Below, piece after piece: positions 51,459-64,000 of a DNA stretch of 64,000 nucleotides; position 1 is the stretch's first letter, and the number at the start of each line of letters is the position of its first letter. This stretch comes from Oscillospiraceae bacterium (GTDB lineage: Bacteria > Bacillota > Clostridia > Oscillospirales > Oscillospiraceae), in contig WQWL01000003.1 in the NCBI GenBank assembly GCA_009785345.1, forward strand, positions 17,331-81,330, written 5' to 3'. The position numbers and the translations under genes were made by a program. The notes under the pieces were generated by a model. The model had not been told where the DNA came from. It saw only the letters and a list, made by a program, of their open reading frames with translations, and did no database searches.

Positions 51459-54400
51459 CTAAAAAACTAACTCAAATGTCTTAATTTCAAAAGGCTTTAT
51501 CTCAAACGTAAACTCGCTTGTATTCTCTGCTATTTCCTTAATACGGTTTTCCAAACAGTCAGTCTCGAATACTTTTGCAACTTTGCTGCGGAGTGTTAAT
51601 ACAGCATTTGTTCTCGTGTTTTCAAACTCGTACATCCTGATAATTACGGAATCGCCTGATTCTGCTTTTTTTACAGTTTCGATGTTAACATTACTGCTGT
51701 TTGTACTCACATAACTGTAGGATGTGGGTGCTGCATCGCATGGCGACTCGATGGCAACAGCATAAGCCGGTGTATTGAGGCAGTGTGCACTTTCTACAGT
51801 ACCGCCCGTTTGCCATGTTCCCAAGTGTGGTAGCAAAGAATAAGTAAACCAATGCTCTTCTTGGTCTGTTGTTTCGTAAGGCTCTATGCCCGATTTTATT
51901 AGAGTCAGGGCTATAACACCGTCATGGATAGCATGACCATACTTACAATCATTTAAGATACTTACACCATAGCCGCCTTCAGAAATATCTGCCCACTTGT
52001 GAGCACAGGTTTCAAAACGCGCCTGATCCCAACTGGTGTTCACATGTGTAGGACGGGAAACATTGCCGAATTGTATATCATAAGTGGCTGCCGGAGACAT
52101 TATATCCGTGCCAAATCGAGCCTTTAGAAGAAGCTGACTCTGTTTCCAATCAACATAGGTTTCAAAATCTATACGGCGAATATTCGCATAAAAATGGATT
52201 TTCTGACTGATAACACTCTCTAAGAATGTACGTTCAACAAGAAGTGTTGCGCGAACCGGACCTGTTTCCAGCCATTTAACTGTTGTGGTTTCATCAACAA
52301 TCCAACTTTTTTCGGTATAATAAATGTCAATATCCCAGTTATCCCATCTCATAGGCTTGTCTTCGTAAACTCGCAGCTCATTGCCCAAGACATCCCCAGT
52401 GAGAACTTCGCGTCCGCTCTCCTTATGGAAAAGTCTGGCAATAAAGCCATTGGTATCGAATTCGGCTTCGTAGAAAGGTGTCTCTATCTTCAAGCCATCA
52501 ATGTTAATCGGGTTGTCGGCATTAGTTTTCTCGGAAACTTTAAGTCCCATAACTCCTTTTGCAGGCATTCCTGAAACATATGCAATCTTACCGCCATCAT
52601 TAGTTTCCTGGCATACTGAAATGCTTCCATCGCCACATACAAGGGCATCAGCATTTATACTACCCGGAATTTCTATGACATCGTCCCGATTGAAGTCCAG
52701 GGTGTTAATAACTGCCAAATCGCCGGAAACATCAGCTACTGCCGAAAGGCGCTCAGTCATAAGTGCATTTGCTTCTTTGCTAAGTTCAGCGTATTCTACC
52801 TTTGTCACATCATACACTTCTTTTATTGATGTTCCGGGAAGAATGTCATGGAACTGGTTTAAGAGTATAACTTCCCACATTGCATCAAGCTCTTTGCGGG
52901 GATAAGGTATATCTTTTGCCAGTACCGAAACAAATTCCAAATCTTGGAGTAGCAGTTCACTTTTGCGGTTTGATCGTTTGTTCCGTGCCATTGATGTATA
53001 TGTTCCGCGATGGTATTCTAAATAAAGCTCGCCCACCCATTTGGGTAGCTCTTTATTGCCAATAGTTCTTTCATAAAGACTGTCGAAATAATCTTTTGAG
53101 TTGCCAAAATGCACTTTTGGAGCTCCATTGACGCCCTTCGACATTCGTTTACCCATTTCGATCATTTCGCGGGTAGGACCACCGCCTCCGTCGCCGAAAC
53201 CATAGGAAATCAATACATCATTATTGATTTCTTTTTGCTGATATCGCTCCCATGCTCCAATTACGCTACAAGGTTGGAGGTATCCGTTGTATGTGGTGGA
53301 AAATGTGTCCGGTGGATTATCGGCACGAGTAGTCGTCACCATGTGTGTAAAAACCTCGCTGCCATCTATGCCGCGCCAGATAAATGTGTCGTAAGGCACA
53401 AGATTAAATTGATTCCAACTCATTTTTGTGGTCATGAAGTAGTCTACACCGCAAAGCTTCATTATCTGTGGCAAAGCTGCACTGTAACCAAAGACATCAG
53501 GGAGCCATAAAATTTTGGAATCGACACCGAATTCGTCCTTAAAAAACTTTTTGCCATACATGAACTGTCTGACGAGAGATTCTCCTGATGCAAGGTTACA
53601 ATCAGGCTCAAGCCACATACCACCCTCTGCTTCCCATCGCCCTTCCGCAGCACGTTCCTTTATCTTTGCGTATAGTGCGGGTGCATGCTCTTGTACGTAT
53701 TTATAGAGCTGGGGTTGGCTTGACATGAATATATACTCCGGATAGTCTTCCATATATTTGAGTACCGTTGCAAAGCTGCGGACAACCTTTTGACGTGTTT
53801 GAGCGACGGTCCACCACCAGGCTACGTCGATATGGGTATGTCCAACGCAAGTAGCGATAATATCCTCATGACCGGCAAGCTTTGTGTACACTTCTTCCTT
53901 TGCAATAACCAATGCATCTTCAATCGATCTGTAAAAACACTCTGAGTGAGGGGTGCGCAGGTCGATTGCATTAACTATTTTTTCAACAGCGACTTCCAAA
54001 TCAATGCGTCGCTTATCGCTTGCGTTCAAACGCGAAATGATTTCAATAGGTACTTTTAAATCATAATAAAGCTCCGTAACAAGGGGTGAAATCTGAGCTA
54101 ACTTCGCGGTTAACTCGAGCTCGCAGGTCTCCGTGCCAGTGTATCCCTGCAAATCGATTCTATATATTTCTCCGGCTTTAGCACATTTTGTTAAAAACAC
54201 ATCTTTATGATTTACATCAAGGGCACACTCAGCCTCCCCGTTTACAAACACCAGAAACTGTGGATTTTTTGCATCCCACCCTGTTGCCTGTGTTGAAAAC
54301 AACAGTGAAAGCGGTTTGCCGTCATAACTTTCCGGAACAGTAATGCTAACTTTAAACCAACTGTTACAGTCCAGTCCTTTCCATTTTTCTGTTTTTGTGT

Positions 54401-54557
54401 CAAACTTGCGCCAAGATACGGAATCGTTGTCTGCTTCTTCTGGTGACCAGAACAGACCGTCTTTAACGAACCAGTCTGTGATTTCGTTGCTTTGAACGAC
54501 AGACAGATTAAGGAGCTCGCGACATATCACCTCTGCCCTTTCTTTTCTGAAATACAT
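51459..54557 (-). CDS. GH38 alpha-mannosidase (no signal peptide)
   Basis: About 1030 aa. GHTHIDVAWWW, the GGMW.EPD.N region and YLEYHRGTYTS are typical GH38 motifs. Start set at MYFRKE.. preceded by AAGGAGGA; the 28 upstream codons of the ORF track were rejected. Confidence 0.9.
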   Translation of the reverse strand: MYFRKERAEVICRELLNLSVVQSNEITDWFVKDGLFWSPEEADNDSVSWRKFDTKTEKWKGLDCNSWFKVSITVPESYDGKPLSLLFSTQATGWDAKNPQFLVFVNGEAECALDVNHKDVFLTKCAKAGEIYRIDLQGYTGTETCELELTAKLAQISPLVTELYYDLKVPIEIISRLNASDKRRIDLEVAVEKIVNAIDLRTPHSECFYRSIEDALVIAKEEVYTKLAGHEDIIATCVGHTHIDVAWWWTVAQTRQKVVRSFATVLKYMEDYPEYIFMSSQPQLYKYVQEHAPALYAKIKERAAEGRWEAEGGMWLEPDCNLASGESLVRQFMYGKKFFKDEFGVDSKILWLPDVFGYSAALPQIMKLCGVDYFMTTKMSWNQFNLVPYDTFIWRGIDGSEVFTHMVTTTRADNPPDTFSTTYNGYLQPCSVIGAWERYQQKEINNDVLISYGFGDGGGGPTREMIEMGKRMSKGVNGAPKVHFGNSKDYFDSLYERTIGNKELPKWVGELYLEYHRGTYTSMARNKRSNRKSELLLQDLEFVSVLAKDIPYPRKELDAMWEVILLNQFHDILPGTSIKEVYDVTKVEYAELSKEANALMTERLSAVADVSGDLAVINTLDFNRDDVIEIPGSINADALVCGDGSISVCQETNDGGKIAYVSGMPAKGVMGLKVSEKTNADNPINIDGLKIETPFYEAEFDTNGFIARLFHKESGREVLTGDVLGNELRVYEDKPMRWDNWDIDIYYTEKSWIVDETTTVKWLETGPVRATLLVERTFLESVISQKIHFYANIRRIDFETYVDWKQSQLLLKARFGTDIMSPAATYDIQFGNVSRPTHVNTSWDQARFETCAHKWADISEGGYGVSILNDCKYGHAIHDGVIALTLIKSGIEPYETTDQEEHWFTYSLLPHLGTWQTGGTVESAHCLNTPAYAVAIESPCDAAPTSYSYVSTNSSNVNIETVKKAESGDSVIIRMYEFENTRTNAVLTLRSKVAKVFETDCLENRIKEIAENTSEFTFEIKPFEIKTFELVF

Positions 54558-54611
54558 ATTGTCATTCCTCCTTAATGTAATTGTGTTTAGTTGCAAAATC
54601 CTGGGAGTTCT

Positions 54612-54648
54612 CAGGAGCTTGGGACAAAAGTTCCGCCCCAAGCTCCTG
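54612..54648. other. 12-bp stem-loop between paralog 1 and the mannosidase gene
   Basis: CAGGAGCTTGGG - 13 nt - CCCAAGCTCCTG. No downstream U tract in the direction of transcription. Confidence 0.4.
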
Positions 54649-54659
54649 CAAAAAATTAG

Positions 54660-57600
54660 TTATGGCTCTAAGGGCAAAGCATGACCATCCGGATTAAAGT
54701 CTACGATAAACGAAACAGAAAGCACTTCGTTTACATTACCTGGTGCATGCCAAACCACTGCATAAATTGCATGAGGGTCATTGCCAGCTCTGACCAGATT
54801 TGCAGCTCTTATGTCTGCTTCATTAAGTCTGGTTCTGCTGTCTATTCTTGTCTGTGGATTTGCCGATCCACCGCGTGGTTGTGGGAAAATCCATACGGGT
54901 GCATCCATATTATCCGGCAACGTGTATGTAACAGGAGTTTCTACTGTCCCTCTCACTGATGCGCCAATCGTAAATACTCCGTCATTATAAGAGGTTACAC
55001 GACCAACTACAAGATTTTGGCGTCCCGCAATGAAGCTCGAAGATGTGCTGTTAAACAGCCAGTTTACAGCTGCATTTACTGTACCATTTGTCCAGGTAGC
55101 CTCTCTTCGTATGCCCTGCATGGCGCTAGACATAATCAGATTTTGAGTTCCTGTTACACCATTGGCAAGTGTGAACAATGGGAAAGTCGTTCCCATATGC
55201 TCAACTACTTCGTTGACACGTATGATCTGCCCAATATTGATGTGTTCACTCTCAAGTAGTCCACCATCGCTTATTGCTGCACCGGGAGGAATGGCAATAT
55301 TTACCATGCCTCTGCCCGTAACAAATGCGGTTCCAAGAGTGTGATTTACACCACCTATTGCGATATTACCTCCGGTAACACCGGTTACCATCGCGAAAGT
55401 TCCTGTAGGAAGGAAGCATAAGCATGGGTCAAAATCACAAACGTGGCAATCGCAAGTGAATATACAGTATGCGTCGCATATTGCACATGGTCTGCATCTG
55501 TCGTTACATTCGGCTTCACAATGTGCACAAGGTACACAGTTCGCGTCACATTCCATTCCGCAGACAGGGCAAATTACGCATTCACAATTACAGACTGCAT
55601 CGCAGATGTCACATGAGTCAATAAACAGCACACAGGTTTGGCATAACTCGCATACTTCACAATCCGGAAACAGCTGGCAGCACGAATATGCAAGTGCAAC
55701 TACAGACAACTGTCTTGTGCGTGTTTCCGGATCGCCACGCCAGTCGCAGAATCCCTGTGTATCGCAGTATAGTTTGTAATACTGATACGCAGTTGTGTTA
55801 CCTAGTAAGTCAAAGACAAAGAACATGCGGTTGTAGTTGGAATAGTCATTAGTCAAACCGGTATATATGACTGTCCATGTTTCTCCGCCATCATTTGAGC
55901 CAGAGAGTGTCCAGCCGTTACCTAAACGACGACCTGGACCCATTGTACCACTATCATTCGACGTTCCGAATATCAAACGGGTTGCTACAAACGGTTCGTC
56001 ATATCTCCATATTGCCCAGAAAGAACCATGCGTATCCATATTCTGGCAGTATTTTGTAAGTGTGCCGGCAACTCCGCCACCAACGCCAGTATAGTCGAAT
56101 AATCGTGTCGCTCCTTCTGCGCCACGGGGATTAGCTGCGGTTACAGCACCAAAACCAAATCCACCGTCAACAAATGTAGGATTCATGTTTACTCTTGCAT
56201 TGACAACCGCACCGGTCGTATTCGGTCTTCCTCCACGCGCGGGGGCATGAGCTGTTGGATTACCATCTCTGTCTACAGGTCTTCCATTATGCCATGCACG
56301 TGCATTGGCGGCCTCTTCAAGAGAAGCGTAACCGAGTCTCCAATAATTTTGCAAGTCTGCACCTAACTCGGCGCTCCAGTCCAAATATTGTGCCCAAAGC
56401 TCATCAATGCTGAAACCTGTCAGTTCTATAATTTGCGGTGTCCTGTTGGCTCCCGTTCCTGTACCCTGTATGAAAGATCCCCCGCGTCCTGTGGGACCAG
56501 CGGCTGTATTCGCTCTGACTGCATTATGCAAATCGCGGTTAAAGTTGGATACATAGTTTTCCGGGAATGTTGAGGCAATTCTTGAGTCCGGATTCGTCCA
56601 ATACTCAGAATGTCTTTCAACCCATCTGAAGAAAGCCGCACCTACCCTGTATGTTTGTGTAAAGCTTTGACCCGATATTCCGAAGTCCGGGATTGTAAAT
56701 CCGGCTTCTCTGTTAAATATACCCATGTAAGGTCTTAACAAATCGGTAAAGTTCTCGTGAATCCAAATAACAACACCACTGCCTCCACCGGGAACAAGAC
56801 TTGCACCTCCATAACGTTGTCCCGCATGAACCAACTCATGTGTTTGTGCGTCCATATCCCAGTGATGTGTCGAACGCCAGCCCGGATCCGTACTTGTGAT
56901 GTAGCGATCTCCATCAGCCGTGTATGACACAATTGCACTGTGCTGTGCGCCCCTGTTAAGCCAACTGAGAGCTACACCATTGGTGTAACTTGACCACCAA
57001 GCAATACTGTCTCTCATATCAAGCTCATACCATTGTGGGCTTAGAGGTGCGGTTTTCCATTCAAATATGGGTTCAAACACTATGTTGAACGCATAGATGA
57101 ATCGGTCTATCACTTCGTCCGGTACTAATGCCCAGTTACCTACATTATTTGGAGAGCTTCCGCCTACTGTTCCTACAGGCTGCCCTCTGTCTCTACCGGG
57201 TCCAGGCATTCTGAAGTTCAAAAACAGATCTGCCGGTGAAGCATCATCTATATGCTTTCCACAACCATCGCCGTCCATACAGTATTCATAGTTGAACGTG
57301 GTAACACCAAACCTCTCACGATTTTCCCATGTTGCATTTGGAGTTTCTGCTACTGTCGGTTGTGTCCATACTGCACCAAAATCGCAGTGATGTCTGAAAG
57401 TGAATCTGAAGGGATTATACGGAACGTTATCCACGCCTGTACCACCTCTCCAGTACGTATTATGACTGAATCCCCAGTCATAGGGAGAATACCCATACGT
57501 ATACATACCCCAACAGGTATCACAGTCGGTGCATTTCATGGTTGTGTATCCCCTAGTGCCACCACCAGTGAACACAGGAAATAAATCCGGGCAATTTGCG

Positions 57601-58454
57601 CCCAGTGGGCAAAATTGTGGACATGAGAGGTAATCTCCGCCACCGCCACCTATCCGTAGAGGGTTAAGAGGGTCGACTTCACCGGATTCTAATTCCGGAG
57701 CTGGACGTGCTATATTCGTAAGTGCCGGGAAATTTTCTAAAGCATTGTCACGTCCGGCAGGAGGGAGATTCGGGTTCCAGGAAGGGTTAGGATGAATTCC
57801 CGGAGTCCAATTGTTAACACCAGTGTTATGCGGACATCTTACCGGAGTAACTCTGGTAACATGTGTACCAGCCGTTGGCGGCACAATATGTTCTACCCAG
57901 TCATGATCTACACAGCATGTGATACGAATCGCATCACGATTGATGTTAAGATTTCCCACCAATGTACTTTCGTGGCATTCTGTGAATGTCACGCCTGCTC
58001 TGACTTCAAATCTTGCATTGTTAATAATTGTTCCGTTGTTGTTAAGCCTAGAATTTGTCACATTTTCCACATGACCATTGTTTGTAAGAATTCCGCCATC
58101 AGCGATGGTGATCGTACCGCCCGAGCTTCCTTGATTATTGATGCGACCGCCCGGGAGTACTACTATTCTACCTTCGATGATGAGCTCTGCGTTACCCTGA
58201 ATATTAAGAGTTGTTTCTACATACAGCGTGCTACCTGCAGGTACTACAAACGGGCTATGCTGTACAAAGATGCCCAAGTTACCTCGAGTTGAAAGGACTG
58301 CATCACCACTTTCTAGTAGTGTACGCAGGTTGTTCGGGTTTGTGCCGGTGAATGGAATCGCTTCGGACGTAGTTTCACTTGTGTTTGCTATGGCTGTAGC
58401 CGCGAGTGAAAGCGATAATATAATGATGAGTGCAATAATTAGTATTTTTTTCAA
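54660..58454 (-). CDS. Giant secreted multidomain protein, paralog 1: N-terminal shared module, BSP-like HExxH peptidase domain, discoidin-like domain, Cys-rich array, unknown C-terminal domain
   Basis: 1264 aa. TTG start 8 nt after AAAGGAG. Signal peptide MKKILIIALIIILSLSLAATAIA. HELVH at 56826..56840 is followed by WIHENFTDLLR. The discoidin-like domain reads FWAIWRYDEP..GNGWTLSGSNDGGETW..YYKLY. Confidence 0.8.
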   Translation of the reverse strand: MKKILIIALIIILSLSLAATAIANTSETTSEAIPFTGTNPNNLRTLLESGDAVLSTRGNLGIFVQHSPFVVPAGSTLYVETTLNIQGNAELIIEGRIVVLPGGRINNQGSSGGTITIADGGILTNNGHVENVTNSRLNNNGTIINNARFEVRAGVTFTECHESTLVGNLNINRDAIRITCCVDHDWVEHIVPPTAGTHVTRVTPVRCPHNTGVNNWTPGIHPNPSWNPNLPPAGRDNALENFPALTNIARPAPELESGEVDPLNPLRIGGGGGDYLSCPQFCPLGANCPDLFPVFTGGGTRGYTTMKCTDCDTCWGMYTYGYSPYDWGFSHNTYWRGGTGVDNVPYNPFRFTFRHHCDFGAVWTQPTVAETPNATWENRERFGVTTFNYEYCMDGDGCGKHIDDASPADLFLNFRMPGPGRDRGQPVGTVGGSSPNNVGNWALVPDEVIDRFIYAFNIVFEPIFEWKTAPLSPQWYELDMRDSIAWWSSYTNGVALSWLNRGAQHSAIVSYTADGDRYITSTDPGWRSTHHWDMDAQTHELVHAGQRYGGASLVPGGGSGVVIWIHENFTDLLRPYMGIFNREAGFTIPDFGISGQSFTQTYRVGAAFFRWVERHSEYWTNPDSRIASTFPENYVSNFNRDLHNAVRANTAAGPTGRGGSFIQGTGTGANRTPQIIELTGFSIDELWAQYLDWSAELGADLQNYWRLGYASLEEAANARAWHNGRPVDRDGNPTAHAPARGGRPNTTGAVVNARVNMNPTFVDGGFGFGAVTAANPRGAEGATRLFDYTGVGGGVAGTLTKYCQNMDTHGSFWAIWRYDEPFVATRLIFGTSNDSGTMGPGRRLGNGWTLSGSNDGGETWTVIYTGLTNDYSNYNRMFFVFDLLGNTTAYQYYKLYCDTQGFCDWRGDPETRTRQLSVVALAYSCCQLFPDCEVCELCQTCVLFIDSCDICDAVCNCECVICPVCGMECDANCVPCAHCEAECNDRCRPCAICDAYCIFTCDCHVCDFDPCLCFLPTGTFAMVTGVTGGNIAIGGVNHTLGTAFVTGRGMVNIAIPPGAAISDGGLLESEHINIGQIIRVNEVVEHMGTTFPLFTLANGVTGTQNLIMSSAMQGIRREATWTNGTVNAAVNWLFNSTSSSFIAGRQNLVVGRVTSYNDGVFTIGASVRGTVETPVTYTLPDNMDAPVWIFPQPRGGSANPQTRIDSRTRLNEADIRAANLVRAGNDPHAIYAVVWHAPGNVNEVLSVSFIVDFNPDGHALPLEP

Positions 58455-58544: not shown

Positions 58545-61500
58545 TTAATCGCAGGCAACACGAATAGCTCCCCGATTAATGTTAAGATTTCCTGTAACAA
58601 CGCTGTCACAGCACTCCAGGAATGTCACGCCTGTTCTGACTTCAAATCTTGCGTTGTTAATTATTGTTCCGTGATTGTTGAGTCTAGAGTTTGTCACGTT
58701 CTCTACATGACCGTTGTTGACCAGCACCCCACCATCTGCGATGGTAATTGTACCGCCTCCATTGCCGCTACCCTGATTGTTGATTCTTCCACCAGGAAGT
58801 ACTACAACACGACCCTCAATGATGAGTTCGGCATCTCGTTGTATGTTTAATGCGGTTTCAATATACAGTGTTCTGCCTGCAGGCACTGTAAATGGACTGT
58901 GCTGTGTGAAGATGCCCAAGTTACTCCGAGTTGAAAGAACCACATTGTTGCTTGCTAGCTGTGTAAGCAGATGGTTCGGATTAGTGACAGTGGAAGGAAT
59001 CGGTGGATTCTCATTTTCAGTTAGATAAATAACTGAGAGTTGAATCGCTACACTATCCGGACCTCTTGGAGCTTCAAGTCTGTAGTGTGAGAATGCTCTC
59101 ATGTTATGCGAGAAATCCACTCTAAAGAACCTGTTGTTAAAGTTTGAGTAGTCGTCAGCTAAACCTGTGTACAGAACATGCCATGTTTCACCATCGGTAG
59201 AACCGGAAACGGTCCATCCGTCGCCCATACGGCGCGGCAATGATAGATTATCATGGGTTGCGAATATAAGGCTGTCGGCTATAAATGCCTCTTCGTATCT
59301 CCACTCTACCCAGAAATCATCTGTCGTAGTTACAACTTGGAAGGCTGTGCCGTTTCCGCCTGCGGGAAGTTGCGCTGCCGGCCATCCGCTAGCGGTGAAT
59401 CTGCCTCTCGGACCACCGTCCGGATTAAATCCGGTAGCAGCACCTTGTGGACCTAATCTCCTGTCAAACAGATTGTACGCCTGCCTGTTGTGCCATGAAC
59501 CAAAGCCTGCGTTAGCCGGGTTGCTGAAATCTGCATGACCGGCAGTAAACACACCTGGTACTGGTCCATGCTCAAATATTGGGTCAAGACGTAGTGTTCT
59601 GTCGCCAACGGCTTCCGTAAGTGTATAGTAACCTGTTGCCCAACCTTCGGTGAACTCCTCGTAGCGTGCATGTTCATATATCATGAATTGTGCCCATAGC
59701 TCATGTTTGGTATAACCGGTGAGCCAGTAATACTGCCTGTGGTCTGCGAAATACATTCCCTCTTCTTTAACAGTTGAGTTCATAGCTTGTGCGAAGTGGT
59801 AGAAGTCCGGATTGCCCGTTCTTTCCCTTACAACATCTATGTATTGACTGTCAACCCAGAACCAGAACGCAGCGCCAACTCTATAAGATAGTGTCCAACC
59901 AAAGAGGTAGTGCGGGCTACCTGGCTCAAAGTAAAGAATCGGCGGATTTCTCCAGTCGGCTTGATCATTGAAGAGACCAATCCATTCTCTCATCATATCC
60001 GTCATATTTTCATGGATATGCAAGGGTACAGTGCCGCCGTAAAGCTGTGCATTGTGAATCAGCTCGTGGGTCATTGCATCGGTATCCCAAGGTTGAGCAC
60101 GCAACCATCGTTGACCGACACCGGATTGAAGACCTGATGCCCAGGCAATTGAGTTTATACCTGCGTCAAGCACGTATGTTACCGGGTTGATTGTACCGGG
60201 CAGATGAGATGGATTTGTAATAGTTTCGTCAAACATAAAGTAGCTTATAGGTACCCATAAGACATTAAAGCTATGGACAAATCTATCCATCATCGCACTT
60301 GGACCTACACCATCCCTCTCATAAATATCCGTCCATGTCAGTACTGTTGACCAAGGAAGTCTATTGGCGGGCATTGGAACCGGGTCAAGGAAGGTGTGGT
60401 AAATTTCTGATACAGGTACATATTCACCACAGGTGGTACATTCTTCCCACCACCAATAGTCCGGATTGAAGCCCATTGCTTCAACACCCGGTCCCGGGTT
60501 TTGTCTGTGATCGGGATTCTCCGGATTAATCCAGTCCCATACACCCCATCCAGCGTCGAAGCCATCTCTGGGAGCTTGCTTGAAGTTTCCTTCAAAGAAG
60601 TTTCCGCTGCCTGTGTGTCTTGCATTTGGATCAAGAGGCGTAAAGTCCCTACGGGAAGCTACATTTTCATAGCCACATGTAGTACAAACATCTGATGTAA
60701 AGCCTTGATCTCCGCATGTAGCCGGTGTGACTACCGGTGCAAACACGTGGGTACAGGTCCAGGTTTCGGATGCAATTCTGACTGATGCAAGCTGTATTAC
60801 ATTGCCCATTGCAGGGGCAGGTGACCAAAGTCTGTAATATTGATATGCTGTGGTGTTATCAGGCAAGTCTGCAACGAAGAATCTAAAGTTGTATGGTCCG
60901 GTTTCATCTCTTTCGCCTAAATGTAACAATGTCCATTCTGCTATTGGTAAGTTCGGATCATTAGTGGCTCTGAGATACCATCCTGTATTCATTCGACGGT
61001 AATCTTGACCGGCGTTTCCATGGTTATCGTTAGCATTTTGCCAGATAAAGCGAGATGCAACGACAGGCTCGGGATATCTCCACTCTGCCCAGAATAGAGC
61101 ATTCTGTGCTTGTGTGGATACGAATTTCTGGTTTTGATTATCCGTAAATAGGAATTGTGGAGGCTCACCAGCGGGGAAGCCAGTAGCCGGACCGCGATGG
61201 AATGCATGACCGTGCACCAAAGTATGGCTGCCCACGGCTTCTGCAAGGGTCATATAACCTGTAGCGTGATCAGGCTCTCCGCCAGCGCCCCTTAATAGTC
61301 TCCAGGCATCTTCAAGTGAAGCACCGATTCTACTATAGAAGAAACCAGCTCTTAGATCATCACATACCCAGGTGGTCATGTTGGTGCCGCCGTGTCTTAA
61401 AGGATAAGTACCAAGGCGTGCATGTTGAGCCATATCCCGGATTGCATTTACACCATATTCGCCAAATTCTTGGGCAATGAATATGAGCAATTGTGCTCCA

Positions 61501-62186
61501 GATGCATCGGCTAGTGGGTTTGTAGTTGCTCCTGCGGGCACCCAGTTTCCTTGCTCTACATACTGACCAAAGTGCACTCTTCCGAATACGCGAAGACCAT
61601 TAGTAATCCATGACGGGAATGTTCCAACTCCGCCGGGGGTAGGATATGGAGCACCCTGCGCCAATTGAACAAGACCGGGAATAATAATGTCTGTGTTATA
61701 TGCATTTGCACCGGAGATTTGAGCAAGTGTAACGCCTACACGTCCGTAGCCCGGTGTTGGGTTACCGGCGGCACCTGGAAGCACAACGGTAGTGTTGCCT
61801 AATACTATTCTTACAGGGAATCTTACACCGTCGCCATAAAATGCGACAATTTCTGCCCAAACTGCTGCAAACGTCGATTCAATACGTTCTACAACATAGG
61901 TATCAACGGTATCCCATGCGCCTTCAAGTGTAAGGTATGGCAAGGGTCCATCAAAGGCATCCGGGTTCTCTGTGTCATCCGTGTCATCTGCATCATCAAG
62001 TGTTAACGGATATTCAGAGTCTTCTGGGGAAGGGTACTGTGAGTAATTTTCTGCCAGGTCTTCGTCTGAAGTTTCATCATAATATGCAAAAGCAGTCAAA
62101 AATGAAAACATCAATGAGAAAACCAGTAAAACTGATAATACATTTCTAAGTTTCTTGCGAGATTCGGCAAATATTTTTCCTGTCAT
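58545..62186 (-). CDS. Giant secreted multidomain protein, paralog 2: degenerate BSP-like domain, discoidin-like, Cys-pair linker, active-looking BSP-like HExxH domain, discoidin-like, C-terminal shared module
   Basis: 1213 aa counted from the ATG at 62186 (MTGKIF.., SD GAGAGG). The hydrophobic signal region is LSVLLVFSLMFSFLTAFA. HELIH at 60054..60068 is followed by HIHENMTDMMRE. Confidence 0.8.
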   Translation of the reverse strand: MTGKIFAESRKKLRNVLSVLLVFSLMFSFLTAFAYYDETSDEDLAENYSQYPSPEDSEYPLTLDDADDTDDTENPDAFDGPLPYLTLEGAWDTVDTYVVERIESTFAAVWAEIVAFYGDGVRFPVRIVLGNTTVVLPGAAGNPTPGYGRVGVTLAQISGANAYNTDIIIPGLVQLAQGAPYPTPGGVGTFPSWITNGLRVFGRVHFGQYVEQGNWVPAGATTNPLADASGAQLLIFIAQEFGEYGVNAIRDMAQHARLGTYPLRHGGTNMTTWVCDDLRAGFFYSRIGASLEDAWRLLRGAGGEPDHATGYMTLAEAVGSHTLVHGHAFHRGPATGFPAGEPPQFLFTDNQNQKFVSTQAQNALFWAEWRYPEPVVASRFIWQNANDNHGNAGQDYRRMNTGWYLRATNDPNLPIAEWTLLHLGERDETGPYNFRFFVADLPDNTTAYQYYRLWSPAPAMGNVIQLASVRIASETWTCTHVFAPVVTPATCGDQGFTSDVCTTCGYENVASRRDFTPLDPNARHTGSGNFFEGNFKQAPRDGFDAGWGVWDWINPENPDHRQNPGPGVEAMGFNPDYWWWEECTTCGEYVPVSEIYHTFLDPVPMPANRLPWSTVLTWTDIYERDGVGPSAMMDRFVHSFNVLWVPISYFMFDETITNPSHLPGTINPVTYVLDAGINSIAWASGLQSGVGQRWLRAQPWDTDAMTHELIHNAQLYGGTVPLHIHENMTDMMREWIGLFNDQADWRNPPILYFEPGSPHYLFGWTLSYRVGAAFWFWVDSQYIDVVRERTGNPDFYHFAQAMNSTVKEEGMYFADHRQYYWLTGYTKHELWAQFMIYEHARYEEFTEGWATGYYTLTEAVGDRTLRLDPIFEHGPVPGVFTAGHADFSNPANAGFGSWHNRQAYNLFDRRLGPQGAATGFNPDGGPRGRFTASGWPAAQLPAGGNGTAFQVVTTTDDFWVEWRYEEAFIADSLIFATHDNLSLPRRMGDGWTVSGSTDGETWHVLYTGLADDYSNFNNRFFRVDFSHNMRAFSHYRLEAPRGPDSVAIQLSVIYLTENENPPIPSTVTNPNHLLTQLASNNVVLSTRSNLGIFTQHSPFTVPAGRTLYIETALNIQRDAELIIEGRVVVLPGGRINNQGSGNGGGTITIADGGVLVNNGHVENVTNSRLNNHGTIINNARFEVRTGVTFLECCDSVVTGNLNINRGAIRVACD

Positions 62187-62330
62187 TTGTTGAAAACCTC
62201 TCAAAATTATATTCCTCGTAGTAAGGACTTTATTTCATGATAGTTCCTTAGGAGCGAGGTCTCCTCTTGTTGCTGCATTAATTATGTGCAACATGGGTAA
62301 ACGGTTCATCAAGTTCTTTGAAGATGCCTG

Positions 62331-62401: not shown

Positions 62402-64000
62402 TTATTCGCAGGCAATGCGGATCGCTCCACGATTGATGTTAAGATTTCCTGTTACGACGCTATCGCAGCATTCCAGGAATGTCACACCTGTTCTGACTTC
62501 AAATCTTGCGCGGTTAGCGATGGTTCCGAAGTTATTGAGAGTAGAGTTAGTCACATTCTCTACATGACCATTATTGACAAGAGCGCCACCCTCAGCAATG
62601 GTAATTGTACCGCCTCCGGCACCGCTACCTTGGTTGTTGATTCTTCCGCCCGGAAGCACGACAACGGCACCTTTAATGATAAGTTCAGCATCGCGTTGTA
62701 TATTTAATGTGGTCTCAATATACAATATCCTGTCTGCCGGCACTATAAATGGACTGTGTTGCGTAAAGATACCCAAGTTGCCACGGGTTGAAAGGACAGC
62801 ATCACCACTTTCCAACAGTGTAAGCAGGTGGTTCGGATTGGTGGCGGCAAATGGGGTTGCGGGCTCTGCTGTGGTCAGGTGGATTGATGAAAGTTGGACA
62901 TTGTTACCCATTGGGTTAACCGGTACTGCCTGATTTGGTACGTCTCCACCCCTTGGGGATTCAAGTCTGAAGTGAGTAAAAGTTCCTCTGTTTTCCACTG
63001 GGATATCGACTCTGAAGAATCTAAAATTAGCATTCCGTGAATCGTATCTCGTGCCAACATACAGTTCTACCCAATCCTCGCCTTCACCGGCACTACCTAA
63101 GAGTCTCCAACCATCGCCCATTCTGCGAAATTGTGTGGCGTTATCATTGGCAGTCTGGAATATGAAGCTATCCGCTGTTACTGGTGCTTCATACATCCAC
63201 TCAACCCAGAAATTCTGCGGCGTCGCATTGAATTTTTGATTCTGGTTCGCGGTGAATAGTTGATGAGAGTCTTCGTTGCCGTTGGCTAGCATACCAGGTC
63301 CACCACGTAAGTGTACAGGAGCATTTTCAGGGGCTACCAGAATACTGTCACCCACTGCTTCTGAAAGTGTCGCATAGCCTTCTGGTCCTTGTAAGCGACC
63401 TACCATGTGAGCCGCACCGAATTCCATGTATTGTGCCCACAATTCATCATATGTATAACCTGTTAGATTGATAAACTGTCTGCCGTCCATATGGAATCTG
63501 CCGTCCAGCTTCATGATGTTGTTTAACGCAGATTGGAAGTGTTCCCATGGGGTGTGGTCATGCCTACGGTTATACACTAGAGAGCTTTCTGCGATAAGAT
63601 TTCTGCCTTCAGGGTTTCTGTTCAGTTGCGGGAATGCCTGACTGCCAACCGTTGGATCATTTGCAAATCCGCCATAGGTATTGTTAATCCAGTTGAAGAA
63701 TGCGGCAGTTGTACTGTATCCGGCGAGGAAGCCTCTTGTATGTTGAGCATGAGCCGGATTATTGGATTGCGGGTGGAACAACGGATTAGAGGTGTTGCTC
63801 CGTCTCTGGAACATGTCAAACTTTTCCCTATCGTTGTCGGCAAGACCTTCCAATATCCACATAGGCACATAAGTAAACAACTGGAAGTTATGACTGAGTT
63901 CGTGAGTCTGAACAGCAGTCCATGGGGATGTAAACAGATGCGCACGCGCTATGCCAGCGACATTACCGGAAGCCCAACCTGTAGGCCCACCCGGCCATCC
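62402..64000 (-). CDS. Giant secreted multidomain protein, paralog 3 (5' end outside the window): BSP-like HExxH domain, discoidin-like domain, C-terminal shared module
   Basis: The frame stays open from 63880 to the window edge; my translation of 63881..64000 is GWPGGPTGWASGNVAGIARAHLFTSPWTAVQTHELSHNFQ. HELSH at 63890..63904 is followed by WILEGLAD. The ORF track Met at 63880 is internal. Confidence 0.8.
   Translation of the reverse strand, partial: GWPGGPTGWASGNVAGIARAHLFTSPWTAVQTHELSHNFQLFTYVPMWILEGLADNDREKFDMFQRRSNTSNPLFHPQSNNPAHAQHTRGFLAGYSTTAAFFNWINNTYGGFANDPTVGSQAFPQLNRNPEGRNLIAESSLVYNRRHDHTPWEHFQSALNNIMKLDGRFHMDGRQFINLTGYTYDELWAQYMEFGAAHMVGRLQGPEGYATLSEAVGDSILVAPENAPVHLRGGPGMLANGNEDSHQLFTANQNQKFNATPQNFWVEWMYEAPVTADSFIFQTANDNATQFRRMGDGWRLLGSAGEGEDWVELYVGTRYDSRNANFRFFRVDIPVENRGTFTHFRLESPRGGDVPNQAVPVNPMGNNVQLSSIHLTTAEPATPFAATNPNHLLTLLESGDAVLSTRGNLGIFTQHSPFIVPADRILYIETTLNIQRDAELIIKGAVVVLPGGRINNQGSGAGGGTITIAEGGALVNNGHVENVTNSTLNNFGTIANRARFEVRTGVTFLECCDSVVTGNLNINRGAIRIACE

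What the first reader, a model, noticed from the sequence alone, without database searches (positions are those of the whole stretch)
55416..55682. 89-aa segment with 27 cysteines (30%) and a 14-residue CxxCxxCxxxC period inside a secreted protein
Paralog 1 contains CCQLFPDCEVCELCQTCVLFIDSCDICDAVCNCECVICPVCGMECDANCVPCAHCEAECNDRCRPCAICDAYCIFTCDCHVCDFDPCLC. I counted 27 Cys in 89 residues. There are about 16 Asp/Glu and only two Arg and two His. Three consecutive 14-aa units (CVICPVCGMECDAN, CVPCAHCEAECNDR, CRPCAICDAYCIFT) each have C-x2-C-x2-C-x3-C. That is the spacing of classical 4Fe-4S ferredoxin motifs and is also typical of dense Zn or other thiolate-metal sites. The segment is absent from paralogs 2 and 3 at the equivalent position (after the discoidin-like domain). 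The host protein has a standard Sec signal peptide, so an exported Fe-S domain would be unexpected. A metallothionein-like metal-binding, redox or disulfide-knotted spacer is more plausible. I do not recognise this array.
Basis: seen in the sequence. Interest (0 to 1): 0.7.

Follow-up and report, generated by a model that had tools for sequence, protein, structure and literature searches.

The report
Conserved cysteine array in secreted peptidase
A secreted enzyme of an anaerobic gut bacterium carries an 89-residue stretch that is 30% cysteine, built from 14-residue repeats and strictly conserved in its few relatives; it matches no described family and is most likely a metal-cross-linked connector between two domains, though this is untested.

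Summary
It lies on the minus strand: window 55416-55682(-) encodes residues 925-1013 of a 1264-aa Sec-type secreted protein (54660-58454, NCBI MCL2424955.1, Oscillospiraceae MAG), with 27 Cys in 89 residues.

The gene is identical in three assemblies. Two orthologs at about 50% identity keep every aligned Cys, although 11 of 27 Cys codons differ synonymously. Non-Cys positions are only 25-39% identical, against 55-68% in the flanking domains.

The anatomy is a 6-Cys cap, a short hydrophobic spacer, four 14-residue units (C-x-[IV]-C-[DGN]-A-x-C-[ND]-x-x-C-V-x) and a terminal 4-Cys knuckle, CxxCxxxPCxC. That knuckle recurs alone at domain borders in other secreted proteins of this clade, often just before the same undescribed about 250-aa C-terminal domain. 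A syntenic 83%-identical ortholog lacks array and C-terminal domain together.

Pfam, NCBIfam, PHROGs and PDB gave no match, but HMMER-based searches are nearly blind to this composition. AlphaFold failed (pLDDT 37).

Best reading (inferred): an expanded chain of tetrathiolate metal sites forming a rigid, protease-resistant connector. Ferredoxin membership fails. A disulfide knot and a metal-storage role remain rivals.

It is a new variant of a known kind, of moderate interest.

The parts
54660..58454 (-). Host gene: a 1264-aa secreted multidomain protein (NCBI MCL2424955.1, FWD05_01310, 'hypothetical protein', Oscillospiraceae MAG).
   Evidence: ORF list. TTG start with AAAGGAG 9 nt upstream. 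Identical in three assemblies.
58383..58454 (-). Signal peptide, approximately residues 1-24 (MKKILIIALIIILSLSLAATAIA). Sec-type, with no twin arginine.
   Evidence: Read directly from the sequence. No signal-peptide predictor was available, so the cleavage site is an estimate.
57912..58349 (-). Module of about 150 aa (NPNNLRTLLESGDAVL...NINRDAIRITCC). It is shared with more than 60 other secreted glycoside hydrolases and peptidases of related MAGs. It is N-terminal here and C-terminal in the two paralogs.
   Evidence: hits covering 10-14% of the query at 55-75% identity. (70-76% identity to the C-termini of the paralogs). No Pfam match.
56295..57167 (-). BSP-like putative zinc metallopeptidase region. 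The HELVH motif is at residues 539-543 (56826-56840).
   Evidence: PF04450 (BSP) matches weakly in orthologs P0003 and P0004 (E about 5e-4, below the curated cut-off) and clearly in P0068 (2e-16). There is no hit for this protein itself. The assignment is by homology to those orthologs.
55689..56156 (-). Domain preceding the array (FWxxWRY...RRxGxGW...QLSVVALAY). It is also present in the paralogs.
   Evidence: Alignments. No Pfam or PDB match. The fold is unverified.
55632..55682 (-). Array part 1: the 6-Cys cap CCQLFPDCEVCELCQTC (residues 925-941; CC-x5-C-x2-C-x2-C-x2-C).
   Evidence: All six Cys are invariant in three orthologs.
55614..55631 (-). Array part 2: the hydrophobic Cys-free spacer VLFIDS (residues 942-947). 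Ile at its fourth position is invariant.
55449..55613 (-). Array part 3: four 14-residue units (residues 948-1002): CDICDAVCNCECVI, CPVCGMECDANCVP, CAHCEAECNDRCRP and CAICDAYCIFTCD. The consensus is C-x-[IV]-C-[DGNE]-A-x-C-[ND]-x-x-C-V-x.
   Evidence: The Pro in CVPC/CTPC is invariant.
55416..55448 (-). Array part 4: the terminal 4-Cys knuckle CHVCDFDPCLC (residues 1003-1013; CxxCxxxPCxC). The same motif stands alone at domain borders in other proteins of the clade.
   Evidence: 10 of 71 proteins. P0066 CDYCSSNPCEC, P0068 CTLGCNARPCAC and P0069 2x CDDCGEYPCVC, each directly before the C-terminal domain.
54663..55415 (-). C-terminal domain of about 250 aa (residues 1014-1264), an undescribed family. 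It is gained or lost together with the array.
   Evidence: Only 7 clusters among 1.84 billion representative proteins. No Pfam or PDB match. Absent together with the array in the syntenic ortholog P0002 / L121.

Best explanation
The array is a metal-thiolate connector. After Sec export the 27 cysteines, which cannot rely on enzymatic disulfide formation in this anaerobe, fold around metal ions from the gut fluid, most likely Zn(II) or Fe(II).

Each 14-residue unit offers four thiolates within 12 residues (C-x2-C-x3-C-x3-C). That is a span comparable to a retroviral CCHC zinc knuckle. The 6-Cys cap, four units and the terminal knuckle would therefore give about six or seven tetrathiolate sites, or fewer and larger bridged clusters as in metallothionein.

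The result would be a compact, rigid, protease-resistant rod. It would hold the catalytic part (BSP-like peptidase plus the preceding domain) away from the C-terminal domain, which probably mediates binding.

The array is an expansion of a 4-Cys knuckle (CxxCxxxPCxC) that this clade uses as a minimal inter-domain connector.

Shown: the anatomy, the conservation, the link to the knuckle and to the C-terminal domain, and the absence of any known family. Inferred: metal binding, which metal, the stoichiometry and the structural role.
For: 1. Selection acts on the thiols only. 27 of 27 and 23 of 23 aligned Cys are conserved at about 50% overall identity. Non-Cys positions are 25-39% identical, against 55-68% in the flanking domains. 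11 of 27 Cys codons differ synonymously.

2. The positions after the CxxC pair and after the third Cys are G/N/D-rich, in 7 of 11 units (9 of 11 counting Glu) and in 9 of 11 units respectively. Position 6 is Ala in 9 of 11. From my own knowledge, G/N/D after CxxC is the pattern of rubredoxin or zinc 'knuckles'.

3. The stand-alone knuckle is the only Cys-containing element in P0066, which has 4 Cys in 1351 aa, all inside CDYCSSNPCEC. The four Cys therefore act as one unit.

4. Related secreted proteins are Cys-poor (median 0.36%, against 1.36% for the window ORFs). They show no even-number bias (41 even, 30 odd, p = 0.24). This matches the published finding that anaerobic Gram-positives lack the even-Cys signature of disulfide formation (PMC2823432). 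The Cys count of the array is odd in all three orthologs (27, 27, 23).

5. The array and the C-terminal domain are added or removed as one block exactly at a domain boundary. This is behaviour expected of a connector plus domain.

6. There is a precedent. CXXC-rich extracellular domains of the gut anaerobe Giardia bind Zn/Fe, lose protease resistance with chelators or reductants, and regain it when metal is added back (PMC6341118). Metallothionein 12-Cys domains contain Cx3Cx2Cx2Cx3C and bind four divalent ions (PMC8476144).

7. No radical-SAM or other maturase gene lies at 36-64 kb of the window or next to the orthologs.
Against: - There is no direct evidence of metal binding.
- Both AlphaFold runs gave pLDDT about 37, so there is no structural support.
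- The segment is strongly acidic (16 D/E, 2 R, 0 K). Adding six or seven M(Cys)4 sites, each with charge 2-, would give a very high negative charge. Metallothioneins and zinc fingers normally offset this with Lys or Arg.
- Some copies of the C-terminal domain have no knuckle (P0066 first copy, P0069 first copy, P0070). The connector is therefore dispensable for that domain.
- The ortholog P0002 works, or at least persists, without the array.
- Only three distinct array sequences exist, so the conservation rests on a shallow tree.
- Whether this genome has a disulfide oxidoreductase could not be checked from 64 kb.
Confidence: 0.42

Rival explanations
1. Disulfide-knotted spacer or inter-chain cross-linker. 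The Cys oxidise outside the cell, spontaneously or in the micro-oxic periphery of the gut, into a cystine ladder. This stiffens the linker, or it links several enzyme molecules or a partner protein covalently, as in an antibody hinge.
For: - The conservation pattern of fixed Cys with free other residues is also the signature of cystine-rich domains.
- A neutral disulfide ladder avoids the charge problem of many thiolate sites in an already acidic segment.
- The odd Cys count (27, 27, 23) leaves one thiol free for an intermolecular bond.
Against: - The host is an Oscillospiraceae MAG. I take it to be an obligate anaerobe from my own knowledge of the family, not from a check made here.
- Its relatives' secreted proteins are Cys-poor and show no even bias. 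This is the published signature of organisms without exported-protein disulfide formation (PMC2823432).
- Correct pairing of 26 Cys spaced 2-3 residues apart without an isomerase is implausible. CxxC disulfides are strained and redox-active rather than structural (my own knowledge).
- The G/N/D preference after CxxC is not explained.
Confidence: 0.22
2. Metallothionein-like metal store or trap. The function is the metal itself. One possibility is capturing scarce Zn for the adjacent HExxH peptidase in a sulfide-rich gut. The other is sequestering toxic soft metals (Cu, Cd) at the cell surface.
For: - A 30% Cys density and Cx3Cx2Cx2Cx3C spacing, as in metallothionein domains.
- The modular repeat expansion resembles multimodular metallothioneins (PMC8476144).
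- The host carries a putative Zn-dependent HExxH domain.
Against: - The two paralogs and P0002 have the same HExxH region without any array.
- The array is tied to the C-terminal domain, not to the peptidase.
- Metallothioneins are small, free, Lys-rich and largely free of aromatic residues. This segment is embedded in a large protein, has no Lys, and has 4 Phe, 1 Tyr and 2 His.
- No metal transporter or regulator gene is nearby.
Confidence: 0.13
3. Chain of iron-sulfur clusters. Each unit contains both CxxCxxCxxxC (ferredoxin-like) and CxxxCxxC spacing. In an anoxic gut rich in Fe(II) and sulfide, [4Fe-4S] clusters could self-assemble every 14 residues, giving a short extracellular electron conduit.
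For: - The spacing matches the classical CX2CX2CX3C motif.
- The segment is acidic, like clostridial ferredoxins.
- The habitat is probably anoxic.
Against: - No Pfam Fer4 match even at E <= 10, although HMMER is weak on this composition.
- The residue after the fourth Cys is N/D/I, never Pro.
- Three residues between motifs leave no room for the ferredoxin fold.
- The signal peptide is Sec-type, not Tat, and the cluster assembly machinery is cytoplasmic.
- The host is a hydrolase with no redox domain, and the neighbours are mannan-degrading enzymes.
Confidence: 0.04
4. Substrate region for post-translational thioether or other Cys cross-links, in the manner of ranthipeptide/SCIFF or QhpC. Alternatively, neutral low-complexity filler.
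For: Cys together with Asp/Glu richness recalls the Cys-to-Asp/Glu thioethers of QhpC (my own knowledge).
Against: - No radical-SAM or SPASM gene at 36-64 kb of the window or beside the orthologs.
- A cross-linked segment is unlikely to pass SecYEG.
- 'Filler' is excluded by the complete Cys conservation at near-saturated synonymous divergence.
Confidence: 0.04

Closest known systems
[quoted passage not shown]
   Same: About 30% Cys. Spacings are dominated by CxxC and CxxxC, with a few CxC and CC. Cys are fixed while other residues drift. The element grew by adding modules.
   Different: No sequence homology. Embedded in a 1264-aa Sec-secreted enzyme rather than a small cytosolic protein. No Lys, strongly acidic, and contains aromatic residues. 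A strict 14-residue period.
CXXC-rich extracellular domains of Giardia variant-specific surface proteins (Pfam PF03302; PMC6341118)
   Same: An extracellular Cys-rich module of an anaerobic gut organism. In VSPs the Cys bind Zn/Fe, and metal or disulfide cross-links give protease and pH resistance. This is the role proposed here.
   Different: No PF03302 match. VSPs are eukaryotic, membrane-anchored, hundreds of residues long and much less Cys-dense. They show no 14-residue period.
Clostridial 2[4Fe-4S] ferredoxin motif CX2CX2CX3CP (Pfam Fer4 families)
   Same: Identical Cys spacing within a unit. Acidic composition. Clostridial lineage.
   Different: No Pro after the fourth Cys. A 3-residue rather than an about 18-residue spacer. 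No Fer4 hit. Sec export. Membership fails on the features that were tested.
Tandem zinc knuckles (retroviral-type CCHC Cx2Cx4Hx4C; rubredoxin-type CxxCG knuckles; the DnaJ CxxCxGxG array). Cited from my own knowledge.
   Same: Four ligands within 12-14 residues. G/N/D after the CxxC pair. Tandem arrangement.
   Different: All-Cys ligand sets. Units abut without linkers. Extracellular. No homology.
Unnamed phage protein family found here (L125 ORF; P0076-P0103)
   Same: Dense arrays of CxxC[NDQE]xxC with acidic or amide residues and almost no Lys/Arg within the arrays. Conserved over 28 clusters.
   Different: Period of about 6-7 residues, at both termini of a protein of about 220 aa. Unrelated non-Cys regions. 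Function also unknown, so it gives no functional lead.

Membership tests
4Fe-4S ferredoxin-type domain (Pfam Fer4 clan) | A match to a Fer4 profile | tested here: not met
   hmmscan of the whole protein (E <= 0.1) and of the three array segments alone (E <= 10) gave no family. Caveat: HMMER's composition correction removes most of the score of Cys columns.
4Fe-4S ferredoxin-type domain (Pfam Fer4 clan) | CX2CX2CX3C followed by Pro, with two motifs separated by roughly 18 or more residues so that each cluster takes its fourth ligand from the other motif | tested here: not met
   The residue after the fourth Cys is N, D or I in 11 of 11 units. Motifs are 3 residues apart.
4Fe-4S ferredoxin-type domain (Pfam Fer4 clan) | Cytoplasmic location, or export in the folded state by Tat (twin-arginine signal) | tested here: not met
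   The N-terminus MKKILIIALIIILSLSLAATAIA has no RR motif. Judged by inspection only.
4Fe-4S ferredoxin-type domain (Pfam Fer4 clan) | Binds an iron-sulfur cluster | not testable with these tools
   Needs UV-vis, EPR and iron/sulfide analysis of anaerobically prepared protein.
Metallothionein | Very high Cys content (about 15-33%) in CxC, CxxC and CC motifs | tested here: met
   27 of 89 residues = 30%. Gaps between successive Cys, counted as intervening residues: 10 of two, 7 of three, 4 of one, 1 of none, and single gaps of four, five and six.
Metallothionein | A small (under 10 kDa) free-standing protein, few or no aromatic residues, Lys-rich | tested here: not met
   Embedded at residues 925-1013 of a 1264-aa secreted protein. 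It has 4 Phe, 1 Tyr, 2 His and 0 Lys.
Metallothionein | Sequence match to a metallothionein family | tested here: not met
   No Pfam or NCBIfam family. No PDB chain.
Metallothionein | Binds several d10 metal ions in thiolate clusters | not testable with these tools
   Needs ICP-MS and native MS.
Giardia-type VSP / CXXC-rich surface protein (PF03302) | Match to PF03302; multiple CXXC motifs in an extracellular region | tested here: not met
   No PF03302 hit. The second half of the feature, many CXXC in an exported region, is met.
Radical-SAM-matured Cys-rich peptides (SCIFF/ranthipeptides, QhpC type) | An adjacent radical-SAM/SPASM maturase gene and a short precursor peptide | tested here: not met
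   Pfam scan of the ten ORFs at 36-51 kb and of the GH38 neighbour, plus precomputed Pfam for the neighbours of the orthologs, shows none. The host is a 1264-aa Sec protein.
Clade-specific 4-Cys knuckle connector (defined here: CxxCxxxPCxC at domain borders) | C-x2-C-x3/4-C-x-C, usually with Pro or Tyr-Pro before the third Cys, located between domains of secreted proteins | tested here: met
   The last 11 residues of the array are CHVCDFDPCLC, followed directly by the C-terminal domain. The same motif is in the same place in P0004, P0066, P0068 and P0069.

The most novel reading that the evidence does not exclude
The array is a self-assembling extracellular metal-thiolate or iron-sulfur 'wire' or reservoir. 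In the anoxic gut fluid, rich in Fe(II) and sulfide or poor in Zn, the back-to-back CxxCxxCxxxC units would nucleate a row of clusters without cytoplasmic assembly machinery. That would give a Sec-exported protein a redox-active or metal-donating rod. It would be a bacterial extracellular counterpart of ferredoxin or metallothionein chemistry that has not been described.
Probability: 0.05. Interest if true: 0.85.

Novelty: new variant of a known kind. Interest (0 to 1): 0.5.

Why it matters
Gram-positive anaerobes are thought to keep cysteine out of their exported proteins. This clade does so too, with a median of 0.36% Cys. Yet it has built a 30%-Cys module and a family of 4-Cys 'knuckles' into its secreted enzymes.

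If the module is a metal-cross-linked connector, it would be a new solution to the linker problem in a protease-rich gut, in place of the usual Pro/Thr-rich glycosylated linkers. It could also serve as a compact, genetically encodable, metal-dependent rigid spacer for protein engineering.

If it instead stores or transfers metal or electrons outside the cell, it would extend metallothionein or ferredoxin chemistry to the bacterial surface.

The case also shows a blind spot. HMMER-based family searches cannot see such arrays, so similar modules may be under-reported.

Tried and rejected
1. Profile search of 5.8 billion proteins with the three aligned arrays. There were 14 word candidates and none scored, not even the query proteins. 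The search is uninformative because composition correction cancels the Cys columns.

2. DNA pattern of nine TGY codons at the array spacing against GTDB genomes.

3. Related-locus search of metagenome contigs. It found only a contig identical to the P0003 locus (100% over 7078 nt).

4. AlphaFold2 on array plus C-terminal domain and on the array alone. Mean pLDDT was 37 and 36.5, so I did not run a fold search on these models.

5. Pfam, NCBIfam, PHROGs and PDB sequence searches of the protein, the array, the C-terminal domain and the preceding domain. No significant match.

6. Alpha-helical 'Cys stripe' or coiled-coil idea. The core has a 3.5-residue Cys periodicity. However, Pro and Gly recur, the composition is turn- and beta-prone, and AlphaFold predicted no helix there. 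I kept this only as a minor possibility.

7. Refined pattern scan of viral contigs. It produced an unrelated, unnamed phage family with CxxC arrays.

8. Literature searches for the motif strings. Nothing describes this array or the knuckle.
Full report
**1. The observation**

The + strand of 55416-55682 contains stop codons. The reverse complement translates to exactly the quoted peptide. It forms residues 925-1013 of the 1264-aa ORF at 54660-58454 on the minus strand.

- Composition: 27 Cys, 10 Asp, 6 Glu, 2 Arg, 2 His and no Lys.
- Cys frequency elsewhere in this protein and in the 36 long ORFs of the window is 1.36%. P(>=27 of 89) is therefore about 9e-29.
- Cys autocorrelation peaks at lag 14. 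P is 2e-4 to 1e-3 for that lag, and 0.008-0.03 after correcting for all lags 5-25.
- It is not a DNA tandem repeat. The units share only 20-43% identity at non-Cys codons.
- The gene has a TTG start with AAAGGAG 9 nt upstream.
- By inspection the N-terminus is Sec-type and lacks a twin arginine.
- The 3795-nt gene is identical in the window, in ENA ERZ27257300 (the NCBI MAG protein MCL2424955.1, 'hypothetical protein', Oscillospiraceae bacterium) and in a Logan assembly of SRR10512955. The frame runs on into conserved domains. An assembly error or frameshift is excluded.
- The two paralogs in the window align up to QLSV..L and then diverge.

**2. Relatives**

A search of 5.8 billion protein clusters with the full protein found only three proteins with high coverage.

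- P0003 (51% identity) has 27 Cys with identical spacing.
- P0004 (49% identity) has 23 Cys. It lacks the last unit, so the third unit runs straight into the terminal motif.
- In the alignment every shared Cys column is invariant.
- Non-Cys positions of the array are 25-39% identical, against 55-68% in the flanking domains.
- 11 of 27 Cys codons differ synonymously between P0001 and P0003, and none differs non-synonymously.

Selection therefore acts on each thiol and only loosely on the rest.

The third relative, P0002 (83% identity), lies in a syntenic locus next to the same GH38 gene.

- Its homology stops exactly at ...ALAY. It then reads AVDPE-stop, followed by a hairpin.
- The array and the C-terminal domain are thus present or absent together, as one block cut at a domain boundary.

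**3. Anatomy**

Read in the phase that gives the best internal consistency, the array has four parts:

- a 6-Cys cap, CC-x5-C-x2-C-x2-C-x2-C;
- a hydrophobic Cys-free spacer, VLFIDS;
- four 14-residue units with consensus C-x-[IV]-C-[DGNE]-A-x-C-[ND]-x-x-C-V-x;
- a terminal CHVCDFDPCLC.

The positions after the CxxC pair and after the third Cys are G/N/D in 7 (9 with Glu) and 9 of 11 units across the three orthologs. Position 6 is Ala in 9 of 11 units.

**4. The terminal motif is a recurrent element**

An exhaustive HMMER search of 1.84 billion representatives with array plus C-terminal domain found only seven clusters. In these the C-terminal domain of about 250 aa is often preceded by a lone 4-Cys motif in the same position:

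- P0066: CDYCSSNPCEC, which holds the only four Cys in 1351 residues;
- P0068: CTLGCNARPCAC, in the architecture BSP peptidase - knuckle - C-terminal domain;
- P0069: two copies of CDDCGEYPCVC.

The same motif occurs at other domain borders or C-termini in GH85, GH16 and other secreted enzymes of related MAGs. In all, 10 of 71 fetched proteins have it.

Some copies of the C-terminal domain lack it. It is therefore a connector and not part of that fold. The 89-residue array is best seen as a large expansion upstream of this knuckle.

**5. The host protein and its context**

- The protein starts with a module of about 150 aa that is shared by more than 60 secreted glycoside hydrolases and peptidases of related Oscillospiraceae MAGs.
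- Next comes a Cys-containing region.
- An HExxH region follows that is BSP-like (PF04450). The match is weak in P0003 and P0004 and clear in P0068.
It has no Pfam or PDB support.
- The array and the C-terminal domain complete the protein. The C-terminal domain has no Pfam or PDB match.
- Neighbouring genes are GH38 alpha-mannosidase here and GH76 next to both orthologs. This suggests alpha-mannan or mannoprotein degradation.
- No radical-SAM, thiol-oxidoreductase or metal-handling gene was seen at 36-64 kb or beside the orthologs.

**6. What it is not**

- Ferredoxin-type. There is no Fer4 match, no Pro after the fourth Cys, a 3-residue spacer and a Sec signal.
- A metallothionein family member. 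There is no family match. The segment is embedded, Lys-free and contains aromatic residues.
- VSP. There is no PF03302 match.
- A maturase substrate. There is no maturase gene.
- Filler. This is excluded by the conservation.

HMMER-type searches are nearly blind here, because composition correction cancels the Cys columns. Even the query proteins were not recovered. 'No family' therefore means no described family matches, not that none could exist.

**7. Most likely mechanism (inferred)**

Exported proteins of this clade are Cys-poor (median 0.36%) and show no even-number bias (41 even, 30 odd). Daniels et al. report the same lack of even bias for anaerobic Gram-positives and interpret an even bias as the mark of disulfide formation (PMC2823432). 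The array has an odd number of Cys in all three orthologs.

These points, the knuckle-like G/N/D pattern and the four-Cys-only protein P0066 together favour metal thiolate sites over disulfides. I propose the following:

- about six or seven M(Cys)4 sites, or fewer bridged clusters as in metallothionein 12-Cys/4-metal domains (PMC8476144);
- these make a compact, rigid, protease-resistant connector between the catalytic part and the C-terminal domain.

The best functional precedent is the CXXC-rich extracellular domain of Giardia VSPs. Its protease resistance is lost with chelators or reductants and is restored by metal (PMC6341118).

Weaknesses:

- there is no direct evidence of metal binding;
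- the segment is very acidic and has no compensating Lys or Arg;
- AlphaFold gave no usable model;
- only three sequences carry the array.

Confidence is about 0.4. The rivals are a disulfide knot or cross-linker (about 0.2), a metal store or donor (about 0.13), an Fe-S chain (about 0.04), and a post-translationally modified or filler segment (about 0.04).

**8. Novelty and score**

The kind of element is known: an extracellular Cys-rich module stabilised by metal or disulfide. This sequence family is not described, and neither are its 14-residue architecture, its 30% Cys density in a Sec-exported protein of an anaerobic Firmicute, and its derivation from a clade-specific 4-Cys connector.

It is confined to a handful of uncultured gut bacteria and has no functional data. 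I rate it a new variant of a known kind, interest 0.5.

Noticed in passing
window 57912-58349(-); also the C-termini of the ORFs 58545-62204(-) and 62402-63880(-): A module of about 150 aa (NPNxLxxLLExxDxVL...GGRINNQG...GGTITI...VENVTNS...NNARFEVR...NINRxAIRIxC) is shared at 55-75% identity by more than 60 otherwise unrelated secreted enzymes of Oscillospiraceae MAGs, including GH16, GH53, GH85, GH10, GH3 and S8 peptidases. It has no Pfam match. It may be a clade-specific anchoring or assembly module, comparable in role to a dockerin or an SLH domain.
   Followed up: partly
window 54663-55415(-); P0066-P0070: The C-terminal domain of about 250 aa is an undescribed family. Only 7 clusters were found among 1.84 billion representative proteins. 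It has no Pfam or PDB match, and it is sometimes duplicated within one protein.
   Followed up: partly
L121 5981-11857 (syntenic locus, ENA ERZ27257339): In a related genome, paralog 2 and paralog 1 are fused into one 1958-aa ORF. The fusion looks like recombination between their copies of the shared 150-aa module, which removed the intergenic region and the signal peptide of paralog 1. The same gene also lacks the array and the C-terminal domain.
   Followed up: partly
L125 3212-3868(-), L145 5625-5804(+); P0076-P0103: A phage-encoded family of proteins of about 170-255 aa has dense CxxC[NDQE]xxC arrays at both termini (18-39 Cys in all but one member) around a conserved Cys-poor core. There are 28 clusters. 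None carries a name, and the L125 ORF has no Pfam or PHROG match.
   Followed up: partly
P0020, P0052, P0058 (GH85 proteins), C-terminal 60 residues: After the shared module these enzymes end in a second type of Cys-rich tail: a knuckle followed by CGxCxxCxxxxCxxxxxCxCxxC and EYHGF. This clade uses several distinct Cys-rich mini-modules in its secreted proteins.
   Followed up: no
window 57250-57910(-), residues about 180-400 of the host protein; equivalent regions of the paralogs: Conserved Cys/His patterns lie outside the array, for example CxH...C...CxxC in paralog 2, and CPQFCPLGxxCPD and KCTDCDTC here. They look like small zinc-ribbon-type sites in an exported protein. The 11 Cys outside the array that align between P0001 and P0003 are all conserved.
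   Followed up: no
window 51459-54641(-); L122 336-3752; L123 5275-7704: The array-bearing genes sit next to GH38 (here) or GH76 (both orthologs). This suggests a locus for alpha-mannan or fungal mannoprotein degradation.
   Followed up: no
window 55456-55779(+): A 107-aa ORF lies antisense to the array. It is probably a by-product of the Cys-codon-rich sequence, since the reverse complement of TGY is RCA. There is no evidence that it is a gene.
   Followed up: no
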